A DNA stretch of 64,000 bases from the NCBI GenBank assembly GCA_965198115.1, contig OZ240241.1, positions 4,224,001-4,288,000 of the forward strand. Reading direction: 5' to 3'. A program made the position numbers and the translations under genes. A model generated the notes under the pieces. It worked only from the letters and a program-made list of their open reading frames with translations, did not search any database and was not told where the DNA came from. Of the stretch, positions 44,017 through 63,345 are shown piece after piece. The number at the start of each line of letters is the position of its first letter. Within the stretch, counting starts at the first letter, position 1. The stretch comes from Candidatus Latescibacterota bacterium (lineage in GTDB: Bacteria > Latescibacterota > UBA2968).

Positions 44017-45393
44017 GAGCTACAATCAATAGGTGTGGAAAAATAGAAAAGGCGACCCTACACTTCCCGTGAGATAACAATATCCACGAAATACCGGGTT
44101 CACAGGCCCGGTGGGAAGGAGGATCGCCGTGGGAAAACATAAGTCGAAGTCCCCCTCGTTGTCCATGCCGACGTGGGAAACCCTTGAGGGGTGGTTGCGT
44201 AAGGAAATCGAGGTTCGCATTCAGTCCATCGTTGAGGAGGAAGTGACCCAGTTCCTCGGACGCGGGTGGTATGAGCGCAAAGAAGCCGTAGATGCAGGAT
44301 CCGGTTATCGCAACGGCTATGGGAAGCTGCGGCGATTGTCGACCTCTTGCGGCACGATCCAGATCAAGCGGCCCCGTGTTCGCGGTTTGGAGGAGCGCTT
44401 CGAGAGCAGGATTCTGCCGTTGTTCGCTCGGCGCACGAGAGAGGTGGGGGAACTGCTCCCGGAGCTCTATCTCCACGGTCTGTCTCAGGGCGACTTCGAG
44501 TTGGCCCTGCGAGGGCTTCTCGGTGATGGGGCTCCGCTCTCCCCCTCGTCGATTGCTCGCCTCCGCGGTCAATGGGAGGTTGATTACCAGACCTGGCAGG
44601 AACGACGCCTGGACGATCGTGAGCTCGTGTATGCCTGGGCCGATGGGATCTACGTCAAAGCCGGACTTGAGAAAGATAAGGCGTGTCTGCTTGTCGTGAT
44701 CGGCGCCATGAGTGACGGCCGCAAAGAGGTTCTGGGCCTGGTGCCTGGGTATCGCGAGTCGACCGAGTCCTGGCTGGCTGTCCTTAGAGACCTACGGGAT
44801 CGCGGCTTGGATCACCCCATTCTGATGGCGGCCGATGGCAATATGGGCATCTGGTCTGCCGTCGATCAGGTCTGGCCGCACACCCGTCAGCAGCGGTGCT
44901 GGAACCACAAGATTCTCAACGTCCCGGACCAGATCCACAAACGTCAGCAGCCTCAAGCTCGTGCACTGCTCGTCCAGATTCCCTATGCCAGCACGCGTCA
45001 GGATGCGGAGAAGCTGCGCAAGCAGTTCGTCGCACGATATCGCAACGAGTTCCCGAAGGCGGTGGCAACACTCGAACGGGATTGGGATAGGATGCTCACC
45101 TTCTTCGATTTCCCAGAAGAACACTGGCGCCACCTGAGAACGACCAACATCGTCGAGAGCCCCTTTGCATCCGTGCGGTTACGAACCAACGCCGCCAAAC
45201 GCTACAAGAAGGTCGTCGCGGCAAGCGCTCTCATCTGGCGAACACTGATGGTCGCCGAGAAACGCTTCCGGCGACTCAATGCACCCCATCTGTTACACGT
45301 TGTTTATGCACAGCACAACCAAACTATGACCACAATCGACTCCGGGAAGAAGCTGGCCGCCTGATCTATTTACACACCTCTTGACTCGACCTC
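44017..45393 (+). mobile_element. IS256 family insertion sequence with 8-bp target duplication GGACCGAG
   Basis: IRL gagctacaatcaataggtgtggaaa; IRR (reverse complement) gaggtcgagtcaagaggtgtgtaaa; GGACCGAG at 44009-44016 and 45394-45401. Confidence 0.92.
44129..45364 (+). CDS. IS256 family transposase
   Basis: YRNGY, WADG, ADG, QRCWNHK, RTTNIVES DDE motifs; aggagg RBS before GTG. Confidence 0.95.
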   Translation: MGKHKSKSPSLSMPTWETLEGWLRKEIEVRIQSIVEEEVTQFLGRGWYERKEAVDAGSGYRNGYGKLRRLSTSCGTIQIKRPRVRGLEERFESRILPLFARRTREVGELLPELYLHGLSQGDFELALRGLLGDGAPLSPSSIARLRGQWEVDYQTWQERRLDDRELVYAWADGIYVKAGLEKDKACLLVVIGAMSDGRKEVLGLVPGYRESTESWLAVLRDLRDRGLDHPILMAADGNMGIWSAVDQVWPHTRQQRCWNHKILNVPDQIHKRQQPQARALLVQIPYASTRQDAEKLRKQFVARYRNEFPKAVATLERDWDRMLTFFDFPEEHWRHLRTTNIVESPFASVRLRTNAAKRYKKVVAASALIWRTLMVAEKRFRRLNAPHLLHVVYAQHNQTMTTIDSGKKLAA

Positions 45394-52423: not shown

Positions 52424-53563
52424 TCACCGTACTCGACGCTTACGCCCTTTGAGAGCGTCCGGTGAAACACGTGGAGCAATGAAGTTCAGGATCGTCTCCA
52501 GACTCTCCCTGGACTTTTTCAAGAACTTGAATCGAACCAGGTCGCGGTCCACCGTCGTCGCGCGGGCCAGCCACCCGGCCAGAAAGGAGGGGCCCTCGGC
52601 GCCCGGCTGAATCCGAATCAGGTCCCCTTCCCCCATCGTCGTGGGGCTTTCTACCACCAGCCCGCTCCCGCTCTGTTCGACCAACCGCACAGGAATTTCT
52701 TCCAGGTTCTCGAATTTGTCGAACAACTCGTCCGAAGGGATCTCGCGTCCATACGTGGAAGTGGGTAAGTGCGTTACCGTAACGGCCACATCCAGATCAC
52801 AGCTGAAGATCTTTCGATCTTCGTTGTATATCAGTTCGTCCCCGTGTTCCAGAACCAGGTAGGCGTGCGGACGAGTATACTCCTTCATAATCTGTGTGCT
52901 GAACCGACATTCACCGCCATACGGCGACCAGAAAAATGCCCAGACAGGATGTCGAGGCCGAAACCGAACAATGCGCTTGCCCTCTTGGAAGGGCTCCGTG
53001 TAAATCGCCAGGTCGTTGAGTTCGAGGATCTCGGCCGAAAGTAGACGAAACCCCGATCCACCACGGGCCAAGACGAACAGCTTCTGACCGAGCATAAGGT
53101 GCCGCGTGTTCCTGGGTCGACGATCCTCGGAAATATACCGGAAGCCCACCTTCTCTCGCACGGCTGCGATCCGGTCGACGGCGTCTTCCATCTCCAACCA
53201 CGGCAGCTTTCGTGCACGCCGGATGTAGGCACGTGCCGCGTTATCGAACCCATCGAGCGAAGAAAGAACCGTCGCCGGATTGAGATCGGGCACGGCCTCG
53301 GCCATCGACTCGACCAGCCTGTTCTCCATCGGATCGAACGCATTCTGATCCGCCAGCTTTTGTAGCTGATCGAATCCCCTCAGGGTGCGCTCTCTACGTC
53401 GGATACGCTTGCGCACGGTGTTGACCACGAGGGGAATGAGCACCAACAGAACCAACACGATTCCGATATACAGAACCGCCTGCACAGTCGGATCCTCACG
53501 ATCCTGTAGCTTCGACAGAACAGGCGCGAATCCTTCGACTTTCAGGAGCACGAACGAAACCAC
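52424..53563 (-). CDS. Membrane-anchored hypothetical protein with YcgR/PilZ-like C-terminal region
   Basis: N-terminal TM (LYIGIVLVLLVLIPLVV), helical region, EDRKIF and EQSGSG resembling degenerate RxxxR and DxSxxG. Confidence 0.5.
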   Translation of the reverse strand: MVSFVLLKVEGFAPVLSKLQDREDPTVQAVLYIGIVLVLLVLIPLVVNTVRKRIRRRERTLRGFDQLQKLADQNAFDPMENRLVESMAEAVPDLNPATVLSSLDGFDNAARAYIRRARKLPWLEMEDAVDRIAAVREKVGFRYISEDRRPRNTRHLMLGQKLFVLARGGSGFRLLSAEILELNDLAIYTEPFQEGKRIVRFRPRHPVWAFFWSPYGGECRFSTQIMKEYTRPHAYLVLEHGDELIYNEDRKIFSCDLDVAVTVTHLPTSTYGREIPSDELFDKFENLEEIPVRLVEQSGSGLVVESPTTMGEGDLIRIQPGAEGPSFLAGWLARATTVDRDLVRFKFLKKSRESLETILNFIAPRVSPDALKGRKRRVR

Positions 53564-53740
53564 GTGGCCTTCCCGCAAATGATGGATCGTCGCAGCAAGA
53601 TGACCGCTTGCTCCTTTTAAATATAGGGCACTTCGAATCCTGTGACTATACGACGGCTCACAGGCGTACCGAACTGGATTGATGAAAGAGCACCGCACAG
53701 AAGCGATGTTCGGACTCTCCGCTCTTGGGGGAGACGGCGA

Positions 53741-53780
53741 AAAGAGAAAGGGCGTCCACGACTACGTGGACGCCCTTTTC
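53741..53780 (-). terminator. Rho-independent terminator after the giant surface-protein gene
   Basis: Minus strand gaaaagggcgtccacg-tagt-cgtggacgccctttctctttt. Confidence 0.8.
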
Positions 53781-53797
53781 AAACAAGATGATGAAAG

Positions 53798-56700
53798 CTA
53801 CTTGAGCAGCATCATCTTTCGAACCGTGGTGAACGCGGACGTTTGAGTACCCACAGCCTGCATTCGTACGAAATACAGACCGCTGGCCACCTGTCGACCG
53901 TATTCGTCTCGACCGTCCCACGCCACACGGTGGCAACCGGCGGTGAGCCGATCGTCGACAAGATGGGAGACCTGCTGGCCCAGCACGTTGTAAATCGTCA
54001 GGCGAACATCGGCAGCCTCGGGCAACGCGAACGGAATCACCGTTTCCGGGTTGAACGGGTTCGGGTAATTCTGCGTCAGTGCGAACGCATCGGGCATCGC
54101 CTGAAGCTCCGCCGCGGAGTCACCCAGGCGACGGATGTTGCCGGCTGGATCAGACACGAACGCTTCTGCAATTTCGACCACACCCGTCACCGTCGGGTCG
54201 AGCACGTTGAACTGAAGCTCCACAATCGAACGATCCCCGACGATCCCCTCGGTCAGGACATCGGCCAGGGTGATCTTGCCCGACTGGCGAGCCTCGAGCG
54301 CTGGCCGCCCGTCTTCCGCGAACAAGGAAGTGCCGGCAGACAGCACATCGGAGAGTTCAAACGCCACGGCGTCGTATTTCAGCGTCAGTCCATAGCCCTG
54401 AACGACCTCGGCATCGGAGAGATCGACTGAGACCGTGATCATCTCGCCGTTGCGGGCGCTTTGAGCCACCAGACTGATCCCAGTCTCGGCATTCAAATGA
54501 GGCCCGAGACCCAGAGGTTTGGTCAACGCCCGTTTAGCCGGCCCACCAAACGCCCCGGCAAAGGTGATGAAGTCGGGGAACCCAATGTTGCCATCCCCGT
54601 CGAGGTCGAACTTCGAATCGAAGTTCGCTGCCCCTACAGAGGCCCCGAAGGCCTGAGCGAACTGGATGAAATCGCCGAACCCGACGATTCCGTCCCCGTC
54701 GAAGTCGGGTGTGGGTTCACCGCTGGCATCGCCACCGATCTGAATCGTGGCGCCACCGGCTCCGATCGTCAGACGCGTCTGATCGGCAGCCGAGGTGGCG
54801 AACTGACCACTGCTGAGCGTGATACGTGTCGGCAGCGTCGCACCATCCTTCACGGTGAATGTGACCGTGCCGATGCTTCCTGAGTCCGCGGTCGTCTTCG
54901 TTGTCCCCAGGAAGGCCACACTCCCGCGGAAGAGACCGTCCCCCTCCGTCGGAATCGGCAACGCACCCGAGAAGAGTCCGGACAGCGTGAAGGTGCCGAA
55001 CTCAAGGTTAGCCGACTCGAAAAGCAAAGTGAATTGATAGCCTGCCAACCCCGTGGCGCCTTCGGTGGCCACCAGATCAACCGTCACCGTGCCGTCATCC
55101 GGCACGTCCTCGAGGATGCGTTCCTCCCGATCCCCGTCGGCCGAATCGAGATCGAGCGCCATCGGACCGATCGTGCCTTCCCCGATGGCTGCCGCAGCCC
55201 TACCCACGACCGTTGCGGTCACCTCACGGGCACCCGATACATGCGGTAACAACCACGTCACCTTCAGCCTGAATCGTGAGGGAGGCGGTCGCCATACCAG
55301 ATGCACTCGGAACCGTTGCGCTCGATCCGCCGTCGACCTGTGCGTCCCCTGAAGTGACCGAGAACGTAATGTCCAACCCGTCGTCGGTCAGTGCGAGACC
55401 GTCCAGGTCGAACAACGCCGCCGTCAATGTCGCCGACTCACTCCCGTCCGAGGCGAGCGAATCAGAGCTCGACGTCAGCGTAATCTGACGCTCGAGACCT
55501 TCGACATTCACCGTTCCACGCGTGAACGTCTCGAGTTCCTCAACACCACCTTCACCGTTCGAGAACTGAACCTTGGTTACGGTCACATCGGTCATGCCGC
55601 TGAACCGGTCGTTCACGAGGAAAGACAGGACGGCCAGCAACCCATCACCCTGCCCCAACTGGCTGTCGGAAGCGCCCAGGAGCACTGTGGAGAAGCTGAT
55701 GGCGTCTCCCTGGGGGATCGAGAGGCTGACGGCGACACCCCCGCTCTGCTTCAGAATGTTGGTCTCGAGCGTGCCGTCCTCTGCGATTCCGTCGAGCGTC
55801 ACGGCTGTCGAGTCGTAGTCCACCTGGATCTCGTAGCCCAGCAGATCCACGACGCCCTTGGCGTAAACCGCGATTTCGAACGACTCACCCGGCGGGACCG
55901 TGGTTTCCGTCACGCCACCGTCGCCTGCCGCCGTATCGAAATCGACCGAGACAGCGTCATCCGCCACCAGGTCGACTTCCGTTGTCACGAGCGGAAGCGG
56001 CACGGTAAAGTCCTCCACGACCGTAGCCCCACCCGCTTCGACGGCGATTGGGTCCGGAGCTCCGTCACCGTTTGGATCGTAGGCGCCGGAGGTCGGTCCT
56101 GCCGATGTCTCGACCTGGGCGAACAAACCGTATGTACCTTCGCTCAGACCTTCAACTTGGTAACCGCCCTGCTCGTCGACAACGCTCCCGCCTGCGATCT
56201 CACCTTCTTCGTTGACCGCGATGACCTCGCCGAACAGAATCTCGACCGGATCTGCTTGTTTCGAAGCCGCTTCTACGAGCAACAGACTGCCCTCGATGCT
56301 ACCAAAAGACTCGAGCTGACCGCCCGTCGCAAACGTGAGTGTCAACGACTCGGGCAGGGGCTGTCCATTCTTTCCGTGCGCACCACGGAGCGTGAATGTG
56401 TAGGACGTGTTCGGCGCCAGCTCGACAGGAATCACGGCGGTCGTTCCATCGTCATCGAGGAAAACGTCGAGTGGACGTCCCTCGCCGGGAACCAGGAACG
56501 CCTCGACGTTGACGAAACGTCCTGCCTGACGGACCGGTGCGGAGAACGTAATGCGTATCTCGCCGCTCTCGGGCACGTCGACCGCGCCGTTTTCGGGTTC
56601 GGTGCTTACCACGCGGAATGCAGATCCTATCGCCCGGATCGTGAAGTCAGCCTTCGCGAAAAGACCGAGTGACGGCACTTCGATTTCGACCTCGTGAAGA

Positions 56701-59700
56701 CCCGGACCCAGGTTGCGGGCGACCGCGCCGGATCGGACAACCACCGGAGGCAGGAAATCGAGGAACACGACGATCTCGGTGTCGAGTACGTTCCCATCGA
56801 TATCGACCACGTTGAGAACCGCATCATTCTCATCGCCTTCACCGTCAAAATCTCCGGTGTCAACTTCAACGAAGACTTCCGCCAGATCTCTGAACGTCTC
56901 CGCGTAGAAGACGAGCGGCGCATCACCGATGATTTCGCCTTCCATGAAGATGTTTTGACCCGGAAGGGAAGCGAGACTCACCGGGTTCTCATTCTCGTCG
57001 ATGACCTCGATTCCGTCGCCCAGCGTGAACGGCGGAAGTGCCGTGAACACCAGGAGGAACCCGTCGTCCGTTTCCTCGATTTGAACCTGGAAGCGATCGA
57101 AGATCTCTTCCTCGGGATGAAGGGGACGCGGAAACGCCGGATTCAGCAACGTCAGCCTGACGACACCGGGCCTGAACGGGTTGAATTCGACGACGATCTG
57201 CGCTTCCTCGCTGGATTCCAGAAGATCCCTGAACTGTTCAGGGGGAATGCCCCGGCCACCAAAGTCGCCGAAGAATGTACGGTCCGTGATCGGCTCGGGC
57301 AGACGTGCCGCGAGTACAATCGTCCGCTAGCCTCATCCACGCTCTCCACGAGGCCATCGATCTCAAAAGGTTCGCCGCCGATGATCGACACGAACTCGGC
57401 CACGCGCTCACCCTCGGGTGCGCCCGGGAAGACCGTTTCCGTTCCCTCCACGGCCACCAGAACACCGTGTCTCAACTCGTGGAGACCCGCTGGGGACTCA
57501 TCGGGGAAAGTGATCACTGTGTTGCGCGTGATCCTGGCTGGTGCAGGTGGACTCGGTGAAATGACATTTTCGAAGTCACGCAACTGACCGAACAGGTCAT
57601 CAACCCGAATGAGAAGATCCTCATCGAGTTGAATCGGGTCCACGCCGAGTGGTAGCACCTCGATGCCCACGGCCAGCTGCCGGTTAGGATCGGGAATGTC
57701 TTCGGTGAAGATCCGAAGGAAACGTGGCTCGAACTGGAACGTCTGCTCCGAGAGAAGCGCATCACGCAGTTCTCTCAACGACCCCACGACGTTGCCGTCG
57801 GGCAGCATGATCTCCGTACCTGGCGGCACGAACAGCTCGATCGACGGTTGGAAGAACAGGAAGCCACCGAACTGATCGAAGAACTCCACGCGCGCTGCGA
57901 TCTCGAACGTGCGCTGACGTGCACCACCGTTCAGAATTAGAACGAAGCTCGCTGTGATCCTGCCCGAATCGTTCTCCTCTCCGAACACGGCGACCTGAAC
58001 GCCGAGGCCGATGTCAGCGAATTCTCGTAATTCGTCCAGAGGCACGCCTGGAATCGGGCTGGGCGGCGGGAAGAACGGATCGGGGAACTGCTTGGCCCTC
58101 GTCACCTTGGCAGCCGGTTTGGTTGCCTTGCTGTTCGTGAGCGGCTGGGCACGCTTGAACGCGGACCCTCTGGCCCCCCGAAGAAGGGATCGAAGAAATC
58201 GTCCTGGAAAGGATTGAAAAAGACGACACCGACGACCGTATCATCTGTGATCGCAACTTCGACCGGTACTTCGTCGTCACCTTCCACAAAGATCAATCGA
58301 TTATCGGCATCGACATCGACCACGGCGCCGATGATTTGGGGCTCTTCCTGTTCCGGGCCGCGGAAAATCATGACACGATCGGCATCAATGCTGCCATCGT
58401 CGCGGAACAGGCCGAAGATGTCGACGTCATCTCCTTCGACCAGGTCGTCGAACGTACCCTGCACGATCTCCGGCTCCTGGAAAATTGGAACAAGGCCGAA
58501 CAGAATCTCGAAATCGAAGAAGTCGACGATCCCGTCGCCGTTGGCATCGTGCGCTTCGGGGCTGTTGAACCAAGCGTCGAAGTCGGCATCATCGAAGATC
58601 CCGTCTCCATTGAAATCACCCGGTTCACCGAACTGCGCCCGCTTGGCTGCGACCTTTCGGCGCGCCTCCTTCAGGGCGTCTCGCTGGAAAAATGGTTCTT
58701 GGAAAATCTGGATCTCGAAGACCGTCGCGTCAGAGACGTGAACTGTCGTCCGGAATCCGAAGTCGTCGATGACGAAGGAGCCGACCGCACGATCGATCTC
58801 AATCACCCGACCGAAAGCAACCGGGAAACCACCAAACCCACCGCCACCTGCGTCGAAATCGCGCAGGATCTTCACACCGGTGGCAAAGATCGTACCGTCA
58901 CTCTCCACCTCGCCGAACACTTCGACGAAATCTCCTTCGATCAGGTCCTCGTAGACGGCGAATCCTTCGAACGGGTCACCACCACCGGCGAATGGATCGC
59001 CGAATGGGTCGCCACCGAAGAACGGGTCATCGAACTGGCCCTGCTGGGTCTGCCCGAACGTACCGAATCCATCTTCGGGCGGAGGTGGACCCCCGACGCG
59101 AATGAAGAATTCAGTCTCATCCGTGACCTGGACGGTGTGAACCACGCCCGTCTCATCCTGGACATCGAACGTCCCGGCATCTCGATCGATCGTGACAACC
59201 TCGCCTTCTACGGCAAGTTCGCCGAGATCTCCTGGACCACCGGGTCCTGGCTGGAGGATGCGGTCCAACCCATCGAACGTGATGAACCCGTCTGGACCGA
59301 CCTGGTTCCGGAAGAGTTGCTTCAGATCTTCTGGGAGCTGGAACAGGAGAAGTTCGTCAAGCGGTACTCCGAACCCGCCGGAGTCATCGATGGCTCTCCG
59401 GATGGACTCGATGATCTCGAACACGATTCCCTCGAATTCGGGCGGAATCCCCGGCGGGAATCCATCGGGCGGAGGGCCACCGCCGAGGGCGATGCGAACC
59501 TCGTCCAGATTAATCTCACCGTCATCACCGGCGATGTCCTCGAGAATGCCTCGAAGATCGTCCGTCAGGAAGCCGAACCACGAAATCGCCGGCGTCGGCG
59601 GCGGAGCACCCGGCTCCAGCAGCGTCGCCTCGATGTCGAACAGTACGTCGATCAACTTCTGCGGGAGATCGCCGAAGGGTGGCGGTGGAGAGCCACCGCC

Positions 59701-61995
59701 GAGGGCGATGCGAACCTCGTCCAGATTAATCTCACCGTCATCACCGGCGATGTCCTCGAGGATGCCTCGAAGATCGTCCGTCAGGAAGCCGAACCACGAA
59801 ATCGCCGGCGTCGGCGGCGGAGCACCCGGCTCCAGCAGCGTCGCCTCGATGTCGAACAGTACGTCGATCAACTCCTGCGGGAGATCGCCGAAGGGTGGCG
59901 GTGGAGGGCCACCGCCGAGGGCGATGCGAACCTCGTCCAGATTGATCTCACCGTCGTCACCCGCGATGTCCTCGAGGATGCCCCGAAGATCGTCAGTCAA
60001 GAAACCGAACCAAGCAATTGCAGGCGTCGTCGGTCCCGCCCCCGACTCCAACAGTGTCGCTTCGATATCGAACAGCACGTCCAGCAACTCTTGCGGTAGA
60101 TCGCCGAAGGGGGGCGGTGGGGACCCACCACCGAGGGCGATGCGGACCTCTTCCAAGTCGATCTCACCGTCATCACCGGCGATGTCCTCGAGAATGCCTC
60201 GAAGATCGTCAGTCAGGAAACCGAACCAAGCGCTCGCGGGCGACGTTGGCGGCGCACCGTCCTCCAGCAGCGTCGCCTCGATGTCGAACAAAACGTCCAG
60301 CAGTTCCTGAGGAAGGTCGCCAAAGGGAGGCGGAGGCTGGCCGCCGAAGAGGGCGGCACGGACTTCGTCCAGGTTGATCTCACCGTCATCGCCAGCGATG
60401 TCCTCGAGCAGAGCGCGAAGATCGTCGGTCAGAAAGCCGAACCACGAAACAGCCGGCGTCGTCGGTGGTGCGCCAGGTTCCTCCAGGGTCGCGAGAATGT
60501 CGTGCAACACACTGACCAGTTCATCCGGGAAATCACCCGGAGGCGGCGGACCGAAGTCGAAGATGCCGTCGAGAGCCCGGAAGACATCGTCGAGTACAAA
60601 CTGCCCGTTTGAGCCGCCGAGCAGTTCCAGAAGCTCGATGTCCCGATCATCGCTCAGACGTGAACGGAATTCCTCGATCGAAAGCAGGAATCCGGGAGGC
60701 TCACCTTCGAGCCGAACTCTCATTTCCTCAAGAAGGTCTCTTAAAACCTGGCTGAGAATGACCGGCTCGTCCGGTCCTCCGAATCCGGGTTCCAGCTGCT
60801 CAAAGAACTCGATGATGTCCGCGCTCAGGCCACCACCTTCGTGCTCGACCACAAACACGTTGACCGGCGTGTCGAGCTGAACGTCACCGAAGGAAGCCGG
60901 TTCGAACGCCGGTGGTGGGATCGGCTCGGTGGGATCGACAGGCGGTGGCTCCGTTCCAGGAAGAATGCGCCGATACTCGGTCTCTGGAACGGTGCCGATT
61001 AGTTGGACGGTCCCATCTTCCTGAGTAACCTCGAACTCGCCCGTCGCGGGATCGACAAACGTGATGACACCAAACACCCAGAACCCTTGTCCATCGGGGC
61101 CAGGCGGGGGCTGGCTGAAGAAGATGTCGAAGTCATCCCTATCGATATCCCCGTCGCCATCGAGGTCCGACGCTTCAGGTTCGGCCACCCAGAAAGCGAC
61201 ATCGGCATCATCCAGGATGCCGTTGCCATCAAAATCGCCGAAGATGAACTCGGGAGGTTGTCCCCCTGGAATGAATCCAGGCGGCGGATTGGCCGGATCG
61301 AACTGGGTATTGAAGACAGGGACCCCGTAGAATAGATCGAAGTCTTCGACGCCTACCTCCCCATTGCCATCGAGGTCACCGGCTTCCGGAAGTCCCGCCC
61401 AGGCAAAGAAGTCCGAGAAGTCCACCAGTCCATTGAAGTCGAAATCGGGGCCAATTCCTGACGGAGGAGGCTGGTTGGGATCCGTTGGGTCGCTAGGGGG
61501 CGGCTGGTTGGGGTCGGTGCCGAAGAAGGAGTCCCCGAAGAAGAGATCGAAATCGAGTGTATCGATCACGCCGTCACCGTTCAGATCCCCAGCCTCAGGC
61601 AGTGACGCCCAGAGGATGAAATCCCCGAAATCGACGGCTCCAGTCCCATCGTAGTCAGGCCCTGGAAGCGGAGGTGGCTGATTCGGATCGGTCGGATCAC
61701 CCGGAGGGGGCGGCGGAGGCTGGTTCGGATCGACCGTCGTGCCAAAAACGGGTCCGCCGAAGAAGAGGTCGAAGTCCTCGACGCCTACCTGCCCGTTACC
61801 GTCCAGGTCACCCGCCTCAGGCAGCGACGCCCAAATTAGGAAGTCGCCAAACCCCACCACGCCGTCCCCATCATAATCGGGCCCTGCAGGTGGCGGATCC
61901 TGAGCAAGAGCAGGTGAGAGCGAGATCAAGGTTACGCCCACCACGGCTGTCAGCGCGACTGCGGCGCCCCGGTAATTTTGAAACCACCGCAACAT
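53798..61995 (-). CDS. Giant secreted acidic multidomain protein (~2,730 aa; 3 frameshifts): dockerin/EF-hand modules, 72-aa repeats, DUF5666-like, Ig-like, three cohesin-like domains, FlgD/T9SS-like C-terminal sorting domain
   Basis: ggagg RBS; signal peptide ending PALA|QD; frames 58102..62064, 57152..58105, 55224..57149, 53798..55306 join at ~58162, ~57325, ~55240; C-terminus LTQNYPNPFNPET...IYNVLGQQV...WDGRD..G..VASGLYF...KMMLLK. Confidence 0.82.
59476..60552 (-). repeat. Five tandem 216-bp (72-aa) intragenic repeats
   Basis: Motif recurs at 59476, 59692, 59908, ~60124, ~60340; unit PPPPFGDLPQELLDVLFDIEATLLE.GAPP.TPA.SWFGFLTDDLRGILEDIAGDDGEINLDEVRIALGGG. Confidence 0.92.
61115..61885 (-). 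repeat. Four paired EF-hand/dockerin-like modules separated by Pro-rich linkers
   Basis: PD(Y/F)D..G.V.F.DF..WA.LPEAGDL(D/N)G.G.....DFDLF three times plus a divergent fourth; linkers DPNQPPP. Confidence 0.85.
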
Positions 61996-62048
61996 AGCTA
62001 CCCTCCGATGAGAAATGACGATGCGACTTCGTAACAGATAGACCCTTA

Positions 62049-63310
62049 GTACTCCTGTTCGCAAATACGGTGACGTATTCTAAGCAGACTTTGCCAAGGG
62101 CGTATCGTAGAACCTGAGTTTGTCGATCATCTCCGCGAGATCTGTTCGTGTGAACTTCCATTTGAAGGGTGTGGCGATACGTCCGTAGCGTTCCTGAAAA
62201 CCGAGGATTCTTGCCTCAAGCTCTTCGAGCGATGCAAATTCGATAGGTGTCAGAGCCTTGCGTTTGAGGATCGAGAAGTAGATCTCGATCTGATTGAGCC
62301 AGCTTGCGTGGATCGGAAGGTGAACGGGGTGGATGTTTGGCCACTTCCCCTGGATACGGTCGATGCATGTTTGCCCTCGGTGCGAGGAGCCATTATCCAC
62401 GATGAGGTAGACTTTCTTTGCCGAGCAATAGGGTTTCCGGCTCATGATCAGGCTCAGGAGCCGGTTGAAGGGCTCGATACCCGAAGAAGACTCACAGAGA
62501 CCGAAGATTCGACCATTGTGCACGTCGAGAGCAGCCAGATAGGCCAGGGCTCCTTTCCGCTCGTATTCGTGTTTCAACGCGTGCCGCTCTGTTCGAGGCT
62601 GGCGGTAGGGTAACGTGCTTGCGAGCTCGTGCTTGAATACTGGTCTTTTCGTCGGCAGAAAGTACATATTCCCTCGGCCCTAAAGGCTTTCCTTGCCATT
62701 GGCGGTGATACAGATCAAGGACTCTACCTGCTTTGGTTTGGAAGTCCGGGTCCCGTGGGAAAATCCAGGAGCGATGATACCAAGGACGAATCGCGTCCTC
62801 GTTCAACCAGCGCCAGACAGTGGCGCCGCTGATCTTGGCAACGAAGCCCCTTTGCACTGCCTCGGCGGCAATCTCGGAACAGCTGAACCGCGAGAGCGGT
62901 ATCCCGCTCTCGCTCGGTAGTTCACACGCCAGCGCCTTGATCTGAACGACCACCTGAGGGGGGAAAACCGGGCGGGCGCCCGGGACGAGATCTATCTTCG
63001 AGTCCCGAAAGACGCTCTTCGAAAAAGCGCTTACGCCATTTGCTTACGATCGGACGCGGGACATCCAACCGTTGGGCGATAATCTTGTTGGATAATCCCT
63101 CGGCGGCGAGAAGCACGATTTTCGATCGGATCACTTGATAATACGGTAACGTATATTGTCCAGCCATTCGCTCGAGGTCGACCCGTTCCTTCTCAGACAG
63201 TAGCACCACATAAGGCGAACGTCTTGGCATTGTTCTCCTCCTTTTGAAGGAGAACATAAGCTACAAATAATGTTCAGAACATACGTAATAATGTTTATGA
63301 AACCATGCAC
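62049..63310 (-). mobile_element. IS630 family insertion sequence with TA duplication
   Basis: TA at 62047-62048 and 63311-63312 (empty site CTTAAG); imperfect IRs gtactcctgttcgcaaatacggtgacgt / gtgcatggtttcataaacattattacgt. Confidence 0.8.
62080..63230 (-). CDS. IS630 family transposase in three frames (probable programmed frameshift ~62960; extra indel ~62573)
   Basis: HTH (RSKIVLLAAEG...KWRKRF...RPGRP), TTTTCCCCCC slippery run, ADEKT, HEYERKG, IVDN, HLP.HASWLNQIE DDE motifs. Confidence 0.88.
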
Positions 63311-63313
63311 TAA

Positions 63314-63345
63314 GAAGCCCCCATCAAAATTAGATGGGGGCTTTC
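63314..63345 (-). terminator. Hairpin, likely terminator of the SCO gene
   Basis: aagcccccatc-aaaatta-gatgggggctt. Confidence 0.55.

What the first reader, a model, noticed from the sequence alone, without database searches (positions are those of the whole stretch)
59260..60770. New-looking 72-aa helical repeat with a penta-EF-hand-type loop, recently expanded
Seen: five 216-bp units plus a degenerate unit on each side; the two units at 59476-59907 are almost identical in DNA and divergence rises toward 60550, indicating recent polar duplication. Each unit ends LRGILEDIAGDDGEINLDEVRIAL. Known (recalled): the 11-residue EF1 loop of eukaryotic penta-EF-hand proteins reads AGQDGQIDADEL in sorcin and AGDDMEVSATEL in the calpain small subunit. 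Inference: a bacterial extracellular Ca-binding repeat domain using the same Ala-initiated loop, probably with variable copy number. I do not recognise it as a named family.
Basis: partly seen in the sequence, partly recalled or inferred. Interest (0 to 1): 0.7.

Follow-up and report, generated by a model that had tools for sequence, protein, structure and literature searches.

The report
Unnamed bacterial calpain-loop helical repeat domain
The repeat is a real, unnamed ~65-residue protein domain that carries the unusual calcium-loop sequence of animal calpains and NOX5, recurs in 1 to 14 copies in what are likely exported proteins of one bacterial class (and, circularly permuted, in a flagellar hook protein), and likely works as a calcium-stabilised spacer, but the gene that holds it here is broken by frameshifts.

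Summary
Confirmed: five 216-bp units at 59476-60555 (minus strand) plus a diverged unit on each side, inside a giant DUF5666/Big_5/cohesin/dockerin-like protein with a T9SS-type tail. Here the gene has three frameshifts and an IS630 50 bp upstream; the same-genus ortholog is intact and has two units. Only the last duplication is recent (dS 0.02); the others are old (dS 0.6-1.5, dN/dS 0.05-0.19). No Pfam or NCBIfam family passes its cut-off. The unit is a small family: 9 of 168 phylum genomes and 17 of 31 database hits, in 1-14 copies, in two protein architectures, plus a circularly permuted insert in 16 of 28 FlgL proteins. Its 11-residue loop has every ligand position of the calpain-like EF-hand (A1, D4, E11 in 39 of 51 non-redundant units). 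It is not a penta-EF-hand protein. AlphaFold (pLDDT 87) gives four helices and a two-strand bridge, like a compact EF-hand pair with a dead first hand, but fold matches are weak (Z at most 4.9). Best reading: a calcium-stabilised extracellular spacer. Calcium binding is untested. New variant of a known kind.

The parts
58102..61995 (-). 5' ORF (1297 aa) of the giant exported protein that carries the repeat
   Evidence: homologous to the intact 2296-aa open frame in same-genus G001
61903..61995 (-). predicted Sec signal peptide (basic start, hydrophobic core, A-x-A then Gln)
   Evidence: read by eye; no signal-peptide predictor was run
61129..61878 (-). seven canonical 12-residue DxDxDG calcium-type loops in short dockerin-like pairs separated by Pro-rich linkers (two more at 58548 and 58617)
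   Evidence: regex
60550..60759 (-). diverged unit A; older type, shared with G001 and P0013; loop ligands partly lost
60340..60555 (-). repeat unit 1 (loop 60364-60396)
60124..60339 (-). repeat unit 2 (loop 60148-60180)
59908..60123 (-). repeat unit 3 (loop 59932-59964)
59692..59907 (-). repeat unit 4 (loop 59716-59748); the unit modelled by AlphaFold
59476..59691 (-). repeat unit 5 (loop 59500-59532); 3 nt from unit 4, the one recent duplication
59245..59445 (-). diverged unit C; lacks the final Glu ligand; absent from the G001 ortholog
57152..59240 (-). DUF5666-like beta-domain region, crossing frameshifts near 58160 and 57326
   Evidence: (below cut-off)
55224..57149 (-). Big_5, cohesin and Big_1 domains of the same gene; third frameshift near 55240
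53798..55306 (-). cohesin, dockerin-like EF pair, cohesin and FlgD_ig/T9SS-type C-terminal domain of the same gene
   Evidence: TIGR04183 passes its cut-off in the G001 ortholog
62045..63314 (-). IS630-family element 50 bp upstream of the start codon; 69 near-full copies in the genome, over 99% identical

Best explanation
The unit is an unnamed four-helix domain, predicted to fold like a compact EF-hand pair with a dead first hand, whose 11-residue calpain-like loop likely binds one Ca2+ after export and so likely stiffens a copy-number-variable spacer in large surface proteins. Shown in sequence or by calls: the unit, its conserved loop, its spread and copy number, its host architectures, purifying selection, and the broken state of this gene. 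Predicted: the fold. Inferred: export (Sec plus T9SS-type tail); Ca2+ held by the Ala1 carbonyl, Asp4, the position-6 carbonyl, water via position 8, and bidentate Glu11, as in sorcin EF1; and the spacer role. In this genome the frameshifts cut the repeat off from the C-terminal sorting domain, so the array is likely a relic here.
For: Loop conservation follows the ligand pattern. In 51 non-redundant complete loops (57 units after a 70% filter, FlgL and P0020 rows dropped): A1 45, G2 49, D4 47, G5 44, S/T/N/D8 46, E11 39 (D 11), while positions 3, 6 and 10 vary. Sorcin EF1 uses Ala43 O, Asp46, Gln48 O, Asp50 via water and Glu53 (PMC4649501 Table S1). The 1/4/6/8/11 'calpain-like' scheme is set out in PMC9421330 (passages). 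PDB profile hits are led by NOX5, sorcin and calpain. AlphaFold on 26 rows: pLDDT 87, pTM 0.74, helix-strand-helix-helix-strand-helix. The Foldseek list is almost wholly EF-hand proteins, and the best of 48,161 chains is an EF-hand pair (FhCaBP4, Z 4.6, rmsd 3.0, 61 aligned). Hosts with enough context look exported: cohesin/Big_5/T9SS-tail proteins, dockerin-like plus FGE-sulfatase proteins with 14 and 8 or more tandem units, and FlgL. Units sit between Pro/Gly linkers or in long arrays between other domains. The units are very acidic (76 D+E against 11 K+R in 360 aa) and lie beside canonical Ca loops. dN/dS is 0.05-0.19. G000 has 8 PorV-family matches over cut-off.
Against: Fold matches are weak and tied with Rex winged-helix domains (Z 4.1-4.9); no Foldseek hit reaches E 0.001. 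The two halves of the unit show no significant profile similarity, so the 'dead first hand' is not shown by sequence. Loop statistics are biased upward because the search profile rewards the loop. Only 3 of 16 FlgL inserts keep G2, D/E4 and E11, and units A, C and several G084 units have lost ligands, so the fold can persist without the site. A spacer role is inferred from position only.
Confidence: 0.58

Rival explanations
1. The domain is a calcium-independent helical spacer. The loop is an EF-hand relic kept because Ala-Gly-x-Asp-Gly makes a good helix cap and turn.
For: Ligands are lost in 13 of 16 FlgL inserts and in several array units. Fold searches do not single out EF-hands; Rex winged-helix domains score as well.
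Against: Glu/Asp at position 11 in 50 of 51 loops and Asp4 in 47 of 51 are what an ion site needs and a plain turn does not. All five units here keep every ligand despite near-saturated synonymous sites.
Confidence: 0.2
2. The domain is a calcium-dependent binding module. It pairs with another unit (as PEF EF5 hands do), with a cohesin domain (as a dockerin does) or with a surface ligand, and arrays give avidity for adhesion or for assembling a surface lattice.
For: It co-occurs with cohesin and dockerin-like domains. It is displayed on FlgL at the position of a variable insert. The five B-type units keep a Trp-Phe-Gly-Phe patch and a Pro-rich first loop.
Against: Host proteins already carry recognisable dockerin-like domains. 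P0002 has 14 units and no cohesin. Surface positions vary widely among units.
Confidence: 0.17
3. The array, or the broken gene, is an assembly artefact.
For: Single-contig assembly; 17 of 122 orthologs compared with G001 show frameshifts; u4 and u5 are nearly identical; no contig spans the whole array.
Against: Units differ at many synonymous sites. A 14-kb contig in two runs matches 53500-59500 with no gap, and a read-sized piece from a second sample spans the first frameshift. u4/u5 depth is doubled. rpoB and rpoC are intact. Of the 17 frameshifted genes, 14 get Pfam labels and all look dispensable; the intact ones were not annotated.
Confidence: 0.05

Closest known systems
Calpain-like (11-residue, Ala-initiated) EF-hand: EF1 of sorcin, grancalcin and calpains, EF1 of NOX5
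   Same: Same loop length and ligand positions 1/4/6/8/11, with amphipathic helices on each side.
   Different: Bacterial and likely extracellular. It is the second helix-loop-helix of a stand-alone ~65-aa domain rather than the first hand of a 4-5 hand sensor, and it is not followed by a canonical EF2.
Penta-EF-hand family (sorcin, calpain domains IV/VI, ALG-2, peflin, grancalcin)
   Same: EF1-type loop only.
   Different: No five hands or eight helices, no EF5 dimer hand; no PEF chain appears in the three fold lists shown (not an exclusion).
Two-EF-hand lobes with a degenerate hand (FhCaBP4, Aralar/citrin N-domain, ACF7 EF1-EF2, calmodulin lobes)
   Same: Four helices with a short two-strand bridge between the loops; Z 3-4.6, rmsd 3-3.5.
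   Different: About 7 residues shorter between the loops (calmodulin spacing recalled); first loop has no ligands; matches are no better than winged-helix domains.
Dockerin / DxDxDG F-hand modules
   Same: EF-hand-derived, extracellular, found in the same proteins as cohesins.
   Different: Dockerins have two canonical 12-residue loops; this unit has one 11-residue loop and no Dockerin_1 match.
Calcium-stiffened extender repeats of bacterial adhesins (RTX adhesin / LapA-type Ig repeats; recalled)
   Same: Proposed role: a tandem, acidic, copy-number-variable spacer rigidified by extracellular Ca2+.
   Different: Those are beta-rich and T1SS-secreted; this is alpha-helical and sits in Sec/T9SS-type cargo.

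Membership tests
Calpain-like EF-hand motif | 11-residue loop with Ala/Val at 1, acidic at 4, Glu at 11 | tested here: met
   5 of 5 units here; 39 of 51 non-redundant family loops; definition from PMC9421330 passages
Calpain-like EF-hand motif | helix-loop-helix with a short beta strand at loop positions 6-7 | tested here: met
   predicted only: AlphaFold H41-54, E56-57, H59-66 of the 69-residue model, pLDDT about 91
Calpain-like EF-hand motif | binds Ca2+ in pentagonal-bipyramidal geometry | not testable with these tools
   needs ITC or a structure
Penta-EF-hand family | five EF-hands in one ~170-aa eight-helix domain, EF1 followed by a canonical EF2 | tested here: not met
   the unit is 63-72 aa, occurs singly, and is followed by a Pro/Gly linker; PDB matches cover mostly the EF1 motif
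Penta-EF-hand family | dimerisation through an unpaired EF5 | tested here: inconclusive
   no EF5 equivalent in the sequence; self-association was not settled here
EF-hand pair (two-hand lobe) | two helix-loop-helix units joined by a two-strand beta bridge | tested here: inconclusive
   topology predicted; best fold match is an EF pair at Z 4.6, tied with non-EF folds; half-to-half profile match not significant
EF-hand pair (two-hand lobe) | canonical 12-residue DxDxDG...E loop in either hand | tested here: not met
   first loop Pro-rich and ligand-free in this array; acidic only in some relatives
Dockerin type I (PF00404) | two 22-residue repeats, each with a canonical Ca loop | tested here: not met
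   0 of 16 units match at E up to 1
Any named Pfam / NCBIfam family | score over the curated cut-off on the unit | tested here: not met
   single unit 0 families; the five-unit array gives only sub-cut-off or zero-stretch matches such as EF-hand_6, EF-hand_1 and XopAW
Winged helix-turn-helix (Rex N-domain) | three-helix bundle with wing, DNA-binding basic surface | tested here: inconclusive
   Z 4.1-4.9; the unit is strongly acidic and in exported proteins, which argues against it
T9SS type A cargo (host protein) | signal peptide plus C-terminal sorting domain, with PorV-family genes in the genome | tested here: met
   TIGR04183 over cut-off in the intact G001 ortholog; PorV_fam 8 matches over cut-off in G000; in G000 the tail is out of frame; signal peptide read by eye

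The most novel reading that the evidence does not exclude
This is a self-contained bacterial calcium mini-domain in which a single calpain-like hand is scaffolded by a ligand-free partner hand. It is homologous, not convergent, to the EF1 hand of calpains and NOX5. It folds on meeting extracellular Ca2+, and one bacterial class has spread it as a mobile, length-tunable stalk module, including a circularly permuted copy cut from a tandem array and grafted onto the flagellar junction protein FlgL.
Probability: 0.2. Interest if true: 0.68.

Novelty: new variant of a known kind. Interest (0 to 1): 0.44.

Why it matters
It would add a small, cysteine-free, stand-alone domain in which the calpain-like calcium loop can be studied outside a eukaryotic multi-hand sensor, and it shows the loop is not confined to eukaryotes. 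The family is well enough defined for a new Pfam entry. The FlgL insert is a clean natural circular permutation with presence/absence polymorphism (16 of 28). The impact is limited: the family is small and lineage-restricted, the likely role is structural, and this copy sits in a pseudogene.

Tried and rejected
Single-sequence AlphaFold on the whole array was uninformative (pLDDT 41). Single-unit phmmer against PDB gave 0 hits. ESM Atlas gave no usable hit twice; this shows neither absence nor novelty. Pattern scans found no confirmed relative: genome contigs 0 of 181 and 0 of 193 candidate stretches, metagenome contigs 0 of 598. The second allowed metagenome scan was not used. The homodimer-plus-Ca complex job returned no answer and is not used as evidence. 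No RNA holder was listed. Half-to-half hhalign was not above 30 column shuffles. No penta-EF-hand chain appears in the fold lists; that is not an exclusion. Phylum hits rejected as chance: G164 (Lon-like by eye) and G045 (SMC-like by eye); G008, G013 and G020 (E about 0.009) were not examined. Four of 31 representative hits (P0030, P0031, P0033, P0037) were judged noise. The long plus-strand ORF 58336-60099 is taken as a shadow of the minus-strand gene. TIGR04131 rang nowhere, controls included. Earlier-findings look-ups returned nothing. Paper searches for prior description found none of this domain or of a bacterial calpain-like hand. In one search none of the 10 listed papers held the phrase, but that search was loose. 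A bacterial calcium review has 0 occurrences of 'calpain' or 'penta' (PMC10574481 passages). The library lacks most subscription papers. The organism's phylum was not determined; the architecture recalls Latescibacterota, from memory only.
Full report
Observation. The array is real. Tandem Repeats Finder reports one array in the window, period 216. In the minus-strand ORF 58102-61995 (1297 aa), five 72-codon units run from 60555 to 59476. Units 4 and 5 differ at 3 nt; the rest differ at 30-70 nt. Diverged units lie at 60550-60759 (A) and 59245-59445 (C). Nei-Gojobori counts over 65 of 72 codons give dS 0.02 for u4/u5 and 0.6-1.5 for the other 9 pairs, with dN/dS 0.05-0.19. So one duplication is recent, and the rest are old and were kept under purifying selection. 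Contigs of two runs from one sample show the u4/u5 core at 18-22x against 9-11x in the flanks; no contig spans the array. That sample may be the assembly's source.

Host gene. Four consecutive ORFs (58102-61995, 57152-58105, 55224-57149, 53798-55306) align in order to one 2296-aa open frame in same-genus G001. Frame changes lie near 58160, 57326 and 55240. Domains in order: signal peptide (by eye), DxDxDG loops, the helical units, DUF5666-like domains (below cut-off), Big_5, cohesin, Big_1, cohesin, a dockerin-like EF pair, cohesin and a FlgD_ig/T9SS-type tail (TIGR04183 over cut-off in G001). G000 has 8 PorV-family matches over cut-off. The frameshifts look real: a 14-kb contig in both runs matches 53500-59500 without a gap, and a 151-base piece from a second sample spans the first. 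An IS630 lies 50 bp upstream of the start, one of 69 near-full copies. Of 122 G001 open frames with an ortholog at 55% identity or more (from 16 loci, about 290 kb), 17 are frameshifted in G000 (some may be shadow frames or 5' extensions). The 14 of those with a Pfam label are flagellar, surface or accessory genes. rpoB and rpoC are intact. I infer a genome shedding surface genes, with this gene a likely pseudogene.

The family. No Pfam or NCBIfam model passes its cut-off on the unit. A first search matched 3 of 41 relatives, own genome included. A 10-row profile matched 8 of 132 class genomes, and a 16-row profile 16 of 168 phylum genomes at E 0.01. I read 13 of those 16. Nine hold true units, all in this class and all in the giant DUF5666/cohesin protein; G057 and G085 match through FlgL (G084 both ways); two are chance. 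G000 has one further unit in a paralog near 5.02 Mb. Among 1.84 billion representatives, 31 score E 0.001 or better. By my reading, 17 hold whole units, 10 match only or mainly the loop hand (a calpain, EF-hand proteins, and apparently bacterial proteins such as P0020, P0026, P0028 and P0039), and 4 are noise. Copy number runs from 1 to 14 (79 matches in 31 chosen sequences). P0002 is a second architecture: dockerin-like domain, 14 tandem units, carboxypeptidase-regulatory-like and FGE-sulfatase domains. A tree of 71 units (62 columns, weakly resolved; FlgL, P0020 and short rows left out) puts this array's five units with the single G001 B unit and two P0013 units (100/99). It shows separate within-protein clades for the G036 pair and the P0014 triple, so arrays expanded more than once.

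FlgL. Of 28 near-full FlgL sequences fetched (the best 30 loci of 44 matching genomes), 16 carry a ~70-aa insert and 12 lack it cleanly. The insert aligns to the unit in permuted order: 58 columns, probability 97%, E 6.5e-11, against 41 columns in normal order and a best score of 14 versus 51 for 40 column shuffles. Its last helix alone matches helix 1 (probability 91%). The first part was selected by the search; the last helix was not. This is what cutting a piece from a tandem array would give (inference). Only 3 of 16 inserts keep the loop ligands.

The loop. Unit residues 54-64 give an 11-residue loop from Ala to Glu. Sorcin EF1 binds Ca2+ with Ala43 O, Asp46, Gln48 O, water held by Asp50, and Glu53 (PMC4649501, supplement Table S1 and passages). 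That paper's text calls the sorcin loop 12 residues, but its table spans 11. PMC9421330 (passages) names this 1/4/6/8/11 scheme the calpain-like EF-hand and finds it in NOX5 EF1. All five units here have every position. Among 51 non-redundant complete loops, 39 have A/V1, D/E4 and E11, and 45 if Asp is allowed at 11; the profile favours such loops. PDB profile searches rank NOX5, sorcin and calpain first, at E 0.003-0.2 and 3e-5 to 0.1, mostly over the motif alone. Unrelated proteins are interleaved, such as a glucosyltransferase at E 0.026.

The fold. With a 26-row alignment, AlphaFold gives pLDDT 87: helices 8-22, 32-38, 41-54 and 59-66, and strands 30-31 and 56-57. That is the topology of an EF-hand pair, with a shortened middle. 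Foldseek returns nearly only EF-hand proteins, none at E 0.001. VIA-align gives no Z of 5 or more in the whole-model counts: an EF pair (FhCaBP4, Z 4.6, rmsd 3.0, 61 aligned) leads 48,161 chains, with Rex winged-helix domains tied. The two halves do not match as profiles. So the second hand is well supported, and the reading of the first half as a dead hand is plausible but unproven.

Mechanism. Most likely the domain leaves the low-calcium cytoplasm, binds one Ca2+ at the Ala loop outside, and forms a rigid acidic bead. Strings of beads on Pro-rich or short linkers would set the distance between an N-terminal calcium-loop or dockerin-like region and the downstream domains. Duplication would tune that length, and the site can decay where the fold alone is enough (units A and C, FlgL). 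Rivals are a calcium-free spacer, a binding module and an artefact.

Verdict. My paper searches (listings only, except the three papers cited) found no description of the domain; subscription journals are not covered. New variant of a known kind; interest 0.44.

Noticed in passing
G000:C1:3368573-3371737 (+) and 1427408-1430755 (-), outside the window: Two 1055- and 1116-aa open frames each match both the rpoB and rpoC models weakly and carry the DxDGD metal motif: likely single-chain two-barrel RNA polymerases.
   Followed up: partly
window 62045-63314: IS630 element with 69 near-full copies over 99% identical in the genome; its transposase is split over three frames here. A Mutator-family transposase lies at 44111-45364.
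   Followed up: partly
G000 genome-wide: 8.4 Mb against about 5.6 Mb for the same-genus genome; 17 of 122 compared genes frameshifted, including a flagellin-family gene, FlgK and large cohesin proteins; FlgL is also broken. Looks like recent IS expansion with surface-gene decay.
   Followed up: partly
L029 (G000:C1:5019000-5029000) and L030 (7643000-7653000): Two paralogs of the giant protein: the first has one unit and is also split over several frames; the second has a 2127-aa open frame with no unit found.
   Followed up: partly
L078-L092, L105 (FlgL of family f4 genomes): Circularly permuted copy of the unit inserted in FlgL in 16 of 28 sequences.
   Followed up: yes
P0026, P0039, P0028, P0020: Other unnamed, apparently bacterial repeat proteins that carry the same Ala-initiated loop many times in different helical repeats; no Pfam family passes cut-off.
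   Followed up: no
window 61129-61878: Minimal paired DxDxDG loops only 11 residues apart (shorter than dockerin), repeated with Pro linkers; similar short modules recur in many relatives.
   Followed up: no
L005:16100-16450 (G001) and G000:C1:95390-95774: A different helical domain near the N-terminus of the G001 ortholog, which matches a frameshifted place elsewhere in G000.
   Followed up: no
L027:8299-8691: A ~130-aa domain between units 2 and 3 in G084 that resembles a SEA-like domain by eye; no Pfam hit.
   Followed up: partly
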